Shown piece by piece: positions 15,247 to 16,104 of a stretch of DNA of 64,000 bases (positions are counted from its first letter, which is position 1; each line of letters opens with the position of its first letter). Source of the DNA: Eledone cirrhosa (lineage: Eukaryota). The notes beneath the pieces were generated by a model. The model saw only the letters and a list, made by a program, of their open reading frames with translations, ran no database searches and was not told where the DNA came from. Location of the stretch: positions 401,698,001 through 401,762,000 of the forward strand of contig OZ024740.1 of the NCBI GenBank assembly GCA_964016885.1. Reading direction: 5' to 3'. The translations under genes were made by a program, and so were the position numbers.

Positions 15247-15308
<62 letters not shown>

Positions 15309-15311
<3 letters not shown>

Positions 15312-16104
15312 GAAGATTAATCATTTTAAAAGGTATCTATATTTGAAGTTCTAGTTAAACTTTAATTAGTTACCTACCTAGCTGTGTGTGCTTACACAAC
15401 TTATAAATTATCCCCTGTGATTGTTTCATGTGTTTATTTTAGATATATATGTCAATCCATTTCTAGTTGATATAAAATGCTCGGATCTATTTATTGGAAT
15501 ATTTGAACATATTCTACAGTGGATATGGCGCATGTCTCTCGGACATGACACCCTTAATTTAATTTTGTATATATACGGCCACTTACTTGTAGAGCTAACT
15601 CAGTTGAAAGGACTCGGCTGCTATTTCTAGCTGTCGATAATCCTATTCACGCCACTGGGATGATGCTGGTACGATGCGTGTATTTTTGAAAAAAATGCAA
15701 CACGTGCTACGGGTCATTCGCAAAATTGCATTTGCTGTGTAAACACAGATAGTTAAATCTTCTGCCTTGTTGAAAATCCGATTTTACGACTGTGATTTAG
15801 CTATTAATGGTGAAAGATATTTCTTTAATGAAATATATACAAGGAAGATTAATCATTTTAATAGGTATCTATATTTGAAGTTCTAGTTAAACTTTAATTA
15901 GTTACCTACCTAGATGTGTGTGCTTACACACTTTACAAATTATCGGCTGTGATTGTTTCATATGTTTATTTTAGATATAGATATATATGTCAATCAATTT
16001 CTAGTTGATATAAAGCTCGGATCTATTTATTGGAATCTTTGAGCATATTCTACAGGGATATGGCGCACGTCTCTCGGACGTGACACTCTTAATTTAATTG
16101 TGGA
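15309..16104 (+). mobile_element. 1.5 tandem copies of a 531-bp non-coding HHR-bearing unit (candidate retrozyme)
   Basis: 15309 repeats at 15840; same family permuted at 61141-61742; TA flanks. Confidence 0.8.
15765..15844 (+). ncRNA. Type I HHR, U3-A8 core variant
   Basis: ccttg UUGAAAA ucc...uggu GAAA gauauuuc-uuuaau-gaaauaua U A / caagg; stem II pairing weak. Confidence 0.65.

What the first reader, a model, noticed from the sequence alone, without database searches (positions are those of the whole stretch)
15301..15850. Insertion 5' end coincides with the predicted ribozyme cleavage site
The HHR predicts cleavage at AUA/CAAGGAAGAUU (15839/15840). The array begins at 15309 with caggaagatt directly after (TA)n, i.e. 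at the cleavage product's 5' end. Both arrays end at internal gatata runs (16104, 61742). Inference: the template was a self-cleaved RNA, and priming used TA microhomology with the target.
Basis: partly seen in the sequence, partly recalled or inferred. Interest (0 to 1): 0.75.

Follow-up and report, generated by a model that had tools for sequence, protein, structure and literature searches.

The report
Retrozyme copy starting near ribozyme cut
This is one of thousands of copies of a small non-coding mobile repeat with a predicted self-cutting RNA motif; about 95 in 100 copies run straight through the predicted cut site, so this copy's start there may well be chance, but a small excess of copies starting exactly at the cut likely records occasional cutting in living cells.

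Summary
The observation mostly holds. A type I hammerhead (core 15770-15776, predicted cut 15839/15840) lies in a 540-bp non-coding unit with thousands of genomic copies. The array starts at 15309 with CAGG, one A short of the predicted product, so its junction is ambiguous from -7 to +3. The preceding (TA)n is also the usual 3' end of a neighbouring repeat. Genome-wide, only about 36 of 818 copies carrying +1..+16 start within -7..+1 (35 expected); the rest read through. Only 1 of 818 has (TA)6 directly upstream. Yet 17 of 818 start exactly at +1 (2.1%, about 4x background and a matched control), nearly all at head-to-head inversion junctions. A larger hotspot sits at a palindrome at +7..+9. 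3' ends fall at three fixed GATATA sites, and paired arms use different ones (66 of 73), the Penelope 'tail' footprint. Verdict: a non-autonomous Penelope-mobilised retrozyme, likely copied mostly from uncut (circular or multimeric) RNA, with a minority from cut RNA. This copy came from cut RNA with roughly 1-in-3 odds. The scan reported the same pattern earlier in other families of this genome.

The parts
15244..15308 (+). (TA)n run; also the usual 3' terminal run of the unrelated repeat ending at about 15243
15309..15839 (+). First unit (531 bp) of the 540-bp retrozyme; starts at unit +1 with a 1-nt deletion (junction ambiguous -7..+3)
15755..15850 (+). Predicted type I hammerhead: stem I, core U3-A8 at 15770-15776, short stem II with long loop, GAAA 15812-15815, 9-bp stem III, cut 15839/15840
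15847..15854 (+). GATTAATC palindrome (unit +8..+15), the strongest 5'-junction hotspot found in the family
15840..16104 (+). Second, partial unit, 91% identical to the first, ending at 3' site c
15974..15988 (+). Internal TA run, minor 3' end site a (consensus about 149)
16007..16012 (+). GATATA, major 3' end site b (consensus about 173)
16103..16121 (+). GATATA of major 3' end site c (consensus 264-276), running into the right (TA)n
61140..61743 (+). Second insertion of the family (C3-G8 core at 61500-61506, predicted cut 61573/61574); starts at about +100 after (TA)n, reads through its ribozyme, ends at site b

Best explanation
This is one insertion of an abundant 540-bp non-coding hammerhead repeat (an animal retrozyme) that is likely copied into (TA)n runs by a Penelope-like reverse transcriptase starting at fixed internal sites, mostly from RNA that is uncut at the ribozyme (likely a circle or multimer), while a small minority of copies likely stopped at the ribozyme cut. 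Shown: the copy number, the three fixed 3' sites, paired arms using different sites, dispersed 5' ends, about 95% read-through, the excess at +1, the larger excess at +7..+9, and 3-8 core covariation. Inferred: that a Penelope-type protein does the copying; that both target strands prime; that the template is circular or multimeric; that +1 starts are run-off from cut RNA (about 55%, against pausing at that point about 45%). The window copy has one arm; it most likely stopped here by ordinary truncation helped by TA homology (about 2 in 3), otherwise by run-off (about 1 in 3).
For: 1853 exact hits to a 24-mer at site b; 818 to +1..+16. 3' ends: 303 of 343 arms at sites a/b/c; 247 of 343 5' ends abut an inverted arm. 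One arm at c and the other at a or b in 66 of 73 pairs from the two motif-picked samples. This matches the one-ended 'tail' and inverted copies of PLEs (PMC8557442, passages) and two internal RT start sites (PMC11167929, parts 1-2). 337 5' ends spread over the whole unit, mean 0.54% per base. Read-through: 61 of 116 arms once, 9 twice. Repeats within one insertion are more alike than repeats between insertions (40 of 44 inverted, 22 of 24 direct), so they share a source. Core pair 3-8: U-A 135, C-G 25, G-C 7 of 187. +1 starts: 17 of 818 against 3.7-4.4 expected (P about 4e-6); matched A|C control at +53: 3 clear ends (4-6 counted generously) among an estimated ~1500. Two insertions have both arms starting at +1 with no overlap (L121/122, L138).
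Against: No autonomous partner was identified: two Penelope-type ORFs in the window have their own hammerheads, and their 3' regions show no similarity to the unit above shuffles. Summed over -7..+1 there is no excess (35.5 against 35.2). End rates vary by position (dispersion 1.3; position 470 has 6 of 126), so +1 is not unique. In 5 of 14 +1-start inversions the partner arm reads through the site, and in L136 and L138 the arm crosses one site before stopping at the next; a single cut monomer cannot give that. The control denominator is an estimate (900-2600). Stem II has a U-U first pair (176 of 185), so activity is not assured. For the Anolis PLE, no RNA-seq reads began or ended at the cut and ribozyme mutants inserted normally (PMC11167929). 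Empty target sites were not recovered.
Confidence: 0.72

Rival explanations
1. One reading: the template is a self-cleaved linear RNA, so copies begin at the cut and join the target by TA homology.
For: This copy starts at or near +1; 17 of 818 start exactly at +1; two symmetric +1|+1 junctions.
Against: About 95% read through; 9 of 116 arms cross the site twice; only 1 of 818 has (TA)6 directly before +1; 16 of 17 +1 starts abut an inverted arm, not a TA run.
Confidence: 0.05
2. The template is never cut during copying. The +1 and +7..+9 peaks come from the RT pausing at the ribozyme's structure (base of stem I, three-way junction, stem III) or at the ligation junction of a circle, and ends are then joined at palindromes.
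For: The largest hotspot (+7..+9) lies at the base of stem I and on a palindrome; positions 461-480 are also hot and 441-460 cold; partners of +1 starters read through in 5 of 14; two +1 arms had crossed one site before; -7..+1 has no net excess.
Against: The peak is at +1 (17) and not at -1 (4 seen in a list that keeps about 65% of ends), where a stop before stem III would fall; blunt +1|+1 junctions occur twice. The 8-bp palindrome just after the cut has 16 symmetric junctions, the longer 12-bp one before it 3 (P about 0.03).
Confidence: 0.4
3. The window junction was made after insertion: the neighbouring TA-tailed repeat inserted or recombined into the ATATATA run just before the cut site of a longer copy and removed its upstream part.
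For: The left (TA)n is the neighbour's normal 3' end; the unit has a 7-nt TA run at -7..-1; the junction also carries a 1-nt deletion.
Against: No displaced upstream part of the unit lies nearby in the window (one search lists only the two arrays); simple 5' truncation into a TA run is common (26 of 94 non-inverted ends, some of them alignment artefacts).
Confidence: 0.15

Closest known systems
Animal non-LTR retrozymes (Cervera and de la Pena 2020, PMC7229834, passages; Li et al. bioRxiv 10.64898/2026.07.22.740005, part 1 of 5 and passages)
   Same: Non-coding, low-GC unit of a few hundred bases with one type I hammerhead per unit, thousands of copies, tandem (circularly permuted) repeats; proposed non-autonomous PLE derivatives.
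   Different: 540 bp, longer than the ~300-390 bp units in the passages read; mostly dispersed 1-1.7-unit insertions with head-to-head arms and not long arrays; long stem III; no RNA data here. The word 'junction' does not occur in the Li preprint's main text.
Penelope-like elements: pLTR, inverted 5' copies and tail (Craig et al. 2021, PMC8557442, passages; Frangieh et al. 2024, PMC11167929, parts 1-2 of 4)
   Same: 5' truncation, partial tandems, inverted 5'-truncated arm, extension at one end only, (TA)n target bias, internal RT start sites.
   Different: No ORF; the tail is about 100 bp (b to c) with a minor 24-bp step (a to b), not 30-40 bp; start sites are TA runs homologous to the target, whereas the Anolis element starts without homology; a small genomic excess at the ribozyme cut, where Frangieh et al. 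saw no RNA-seq read ends.
PLE hammerheads including the U3-A8 variant (Cervera and de la Pena 2014, PMC4209133, passages)
   Same: Type I core with C3-G8 to U3-A8 covariation; motifs dispersed, some in opposite orientation 100-700 bp apart.
   Different: A third state G3-C8 is also present; 9-bp stem III in place of a minimal one; loop II can pair over 15 bp with the segment 5' of stem I.
R2 retrotransposon 5' ribozyme (recalled from memory; search listing only)
   Same: [quoted passage not shown]
   Different: There it is an HDV-like ribozyme that sets the 5' end of full-length copies; here only about 2% of passages end at the cut.

Membership tests
Type I hammerhead ribozyme | Conserved core (C3/U3 U4 G5 A6 N7 G8/A8 A9; G12 A13 A14 A15.1; U16.1 H17) | tested here: met
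   each core base conserved in 175-187 of 189 copies; 3-8 paired in 172 of 187 in three Watson-Crick states (subfamily states, not independent events)
Type I hammerhead ribozyme | Stems I and III | tested here: met
   95% and 96% of cells paired
Type I hammerhead ribozyme | Stem II closed next to the core | tested here: inconclusive
   first pair is U-U in 176 of 185; next three pairs hold in 87-97%; Rfam gathering search found no match
Type I hammerhead ribozyme | Self-cleavage | not testable with these tools
   Only the indirect genomic excess at +1
Animal non-LTR retrozyme | Short non-coding tandem unit, one type I HHR per unit, low GC, high copy | tested here: met
   no stop-free frame of 120 aa or more over 15309-16104
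Animal non-LTR retrozyme | Expressed as circular RNA | not testable with these tools
   No RNA holder listed; read-through fits a circle or an uncut multimer equally
Penelope-like insertion footprint | Inverted 5'-truncated arm, partial tandem, tail at one end only | tested here: met
   247 of 343 5' ends inverted; 66 of 73 pairs use c on one side and a or b on the other
Penelope-like insertion footprint | Insertion into pre-existing (TA)n | tested here: inconclusive
   Flanks are TA runs and both window copies abut the TA-tailed ends of other repeats; no valid empty site among 251 insertions tested
Autonomous PLE | RT plus GIY-YIG ORF between pLTRs | tested here: not met
   No ORF in the unit; long frames beside copies were mostly other RT or transposase elements, and the one GIY-YIG frame has an unrelated 3' region
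Non-autonomous PLE derivative | Sequence shared with the pLTR of an autonomous partner | tested here: inconclusive
   Only the two PLE families in the window were compared; alignment scores 34 and 33 against shuffle means of 32 and 31

The most novel reading that the evidence does not exclude
The junctions are a genomic record of hammerhead cleavage in living cells during Penelope-type copying. About 2% of passages run off exactly at the cut, and the larger +7..+9 hotspot (roughly 10% of arms) is the same run-off trimmed back 7 nt to the nearest palindrome where two cDNAs anneal. About one arm in eight reaching the ribozyme would then come from cut RNA, and the rest from circles.
Probability: 0.35. 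Interest if true: 0.55.

Novelty: new member of a known kind. Interest (0 to 1): 0.33.

Why it matters
Whether Penelope-associated hammerheads cut during transposition is open: in the one in vitro system read here the ribozyme was dispensable and no RNA ends mapped to it. Thousands of genomic copies give a countable read-out. They say that cutting does not normally set the 5' end, yet leaves a measurable trace, and that can be tested with core mutants.

Tried and rejected
Rfam gathering search of the window: 0 matches. The first BLAST sample scored 40 of 3370 candidates and favours long copies, so I replaced it with exact-motif samples and counted exposure only upstream of the selecting motif. 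Empty-site search: 251 insertions tested, 1 hit, which was an artefact of a truncated copy; no conclusion. Sequencing runs: no RNA holder listed; three contig runs of one sample were laid and were uninformative about ends. Autonomous partner: 24 of the 60 listed long frames were scanned; hits were RT-PHD and other RT elements, a DDE transposase and one weak GIY-YIG; a pLTR-ORF-pLTR reading of L039/L224 was dropped because only an RT was found and no GIY-YIG, and it was not examined further; the window PLEs share no sequence with the unit. Partner-arm test for a cut monomer: 5 of 14 read through against 42 of 78 in background, P=0.14, not decisive. Dropped before counting: 12 read-through copies plus L131 (starts at about -16) from the 30; L259 (TA deletion); L296 (chance match); L310 (no downstream match); arms touching a locus edge. 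Look-up of earlier findings by sequence returned nothing.

Full report
Observation. The window holds two copies of one repeat, 15309-16104 and 61140-61743. The first is a 531-bp unit plus a partial second unit, 91% identical. A type I hammerhead lies at 15755-15850: stem I, core UUGAAAA at 15770-15776, GAAA at 15812-15815, a 9-bp stem III, and the predicted cut after AUA at 15839/15840. The array begins at 15309 after 65 nt of (TA)n, but reads CAGG where the second unit and the family read CAAGG. With the ATATATA run that precedes the cut, the junction is only fixed to -7..+3. The second copy starts at about +100. The left (TA)n is also the usual end of the neighbouring repeat, and the same holds for the second copy's left neighbour.

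The family. Exact searches gave 1853 hits for a 24-mer at the b site and 818 for +1..+16, in a 3.0-Gb genome. A 540-bp circular consensus came from 61 near-full units; copies are a median 88.5% identical to it (91 segments). Positions below count from the base after the cut (+1). The ribozyme looks maintained: among 189 copies the core bases are kept in 175-187, and pair 3-8 is U-A in 135, C-G in 25 and G-C in 7 of 187. These are subfamily states, not independent events. U3-A8 is a known PLE variant (PMC4209133, passages). Stem II is odd, with U-U first. Rfam found nothing at gathering scores.

3' ends. Of 343 arms in three samples, 28 end at site a, 136 at b and 139 at c; TA-type runs follow 19, 113 and 77 of these, against 3 of the 40 others. 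247 of 343 5' ends abut an inverted arm. In the two motif-picked samples 66 of 73 pairs with defined ends use c on one side and a or b on the other. This is the PLE footprint of an inverted arm with a tail at one end (PMC8557442, passages), and it matches two internal RT start sites in the Anolis element (PMC11167929, parts 1-2). TA homology may help priming but does not choose the site. In the sample not picked on b, the 14-nt run (a) has 17 ends and the 5-nt run (b) 54; the 7-nt run before the cut has 1 of 343.

337 ends spread over the whole unit at a mean 0.54% per base; +1 had 2 of 184. In the sample picked on site b, 61 of 116 arms cross the cut and 9 cross it twice. I then listed near-site starts genome-wide. 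All 30 copies of +1..+16 with a base other than A at -1 were fetched: 17 are true starts at +1, from 16 insertions, and 13 read through. Expected: 3.7-4.4, P about 4e-6. A matched A|C step at +53 gave 8 hits, 3 clearly true ends; counted as 4 or 6 and corrected for retention against an estimated 900-2600 copies, the odds ratio for +1 is 2.7-11. Starts at -7..-1 number 12 in a 40-row list that kept 11 of the 17 known +1 starts (30 rows classed by script, 10 by eye), so about 19. Together -7..+1 holds about 36 against 35 expected. So about 95% of copies read through, and the excess is confined to +1. 16 of the 17 +1 starts abut an inverted arm; two insertions have both arms starting at +1 without overlap.

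A larger hotspot. The list of starts at +2..+9 had 160 rows against 1155 anchor copies. Of the first 30 loci, 19 start at +7..+9 (after setting aside four one-base-deletion or mismatch cases by eye), which scales to roughly 10% of arms. This is the palindrome GATTAATC. Perfectly symmetric junctions number 16 there (6 of 6 fetched are real) against 3 real of 4 at the longer stem III palindrome before the cut (P about 0.03). Run-off at +1 with trimming to the nearest palindrome would explain this. So would pausing at the base of stem I, or self-folding of the upstream palindrome.

Mechanism. Most likely a PLE protein nicks (TA)n on both strands and primes at c and at b. It copies RNA that is usually intact across the ribozyme, and stops at scattered places; the two cDNAs join head to head through short homologies (overlap 1-7 nt in 65 of 123 pairs). 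Repeats within one insertion share a source (40 of 44 and 22 of 24 more alike than between insertions), which fits a circle or a multimer. About 2% of passages stop at +1. Against pure run-off from a cut monomer: 5 of 14 partner arms read through, and two +1 arms had already crossed one site. I put run-off at 55% and pausing at 45%. For the window copy, about 13 of 36 near-site starts are excess and single-arm copies show little of it, so about 1 in 3.

Partner. The window has two PLE-type ORFs with inverted arms (about 19010-21927 and 45800-50310). A close relative of the first shows a weak GIY-YIG hit and the upstream CX4CxxC motif described for Neptune and Nematis. Both end in ACAATA, followed by (TA)n on one arm each, but their 3' regions do not resemble the unit. 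The partner is unidentified.

Novelty. A new member of the animal retrozymes (PMC7229834, passages; bioRxiv 10.64898/2026.07.22.740005, part 1 and passages). Four paper searches (listings) showed no title or abstract opening on junction counts at PLE hammerhead sites; I read only the parts named. Earlier notes of this scan report the same footprint and a similar ~4-fold excess in other families of this genome. I saw them after finding the +1 excess and did not check their data. Interest 0.33.

Noticed in passing
window 19010-21927: Neptune-like PLE: stop-free frame 19654-21486 with a weak RT hit and GIY-YIG-type C-terminus, inverted 5' arm 19010-19851, its own hammerhead-like motif at 21722 (+) and 19207 (-).
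   Followed up: partly
window about 45800-50310: Second, more distant PLE (57-64% protein identity to the L227 relative of the first), broken frames, inverted arm, similar 3' terminal 25 nt, hammerhead-like core near 50070.
   Followed up: partly
window about 14800-15243: High-copy unrelated repeat with two alternative 3' ends about 40 nt apart, each followed by (TA)n: a PLE-type tail.
   Followed up: partly
window about 15743-15759 with 15780-15794 (consensus 443-458 with 481-495): Loop II of the hammerhead can form a 15-bp helix with the segment 5' of stem I, with compensatory states (A-U 132, G-C 21, G-U 20 at one pair). 5' ends are rare in 441-460 (1 in 2161 base-exposures) and frequent in 461-480 (28 in 2478).
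   Followed up: partly
L032, L050, L075, L088 and others: Recurrent deletion between the two GAAATATAT repeats shortens stem III to the minimal palindromic form typical of dimer-dependent hammerheads.
   Followed up: no
L200, L232, L265, L277, L281: Subfamily with a G3-C8 core and matching changes in stem I and the loop II helix.
   Followed up: partly
window 291 and 1604 (-), 44890 (-), 58368 (+): Further hammerhead-like motifs from a loose scan.
   Followed up: no
L026, L220, L221, L295, L308: RT elements with a C-terminal PHD finger lie beside several copies.
   Followed up: no
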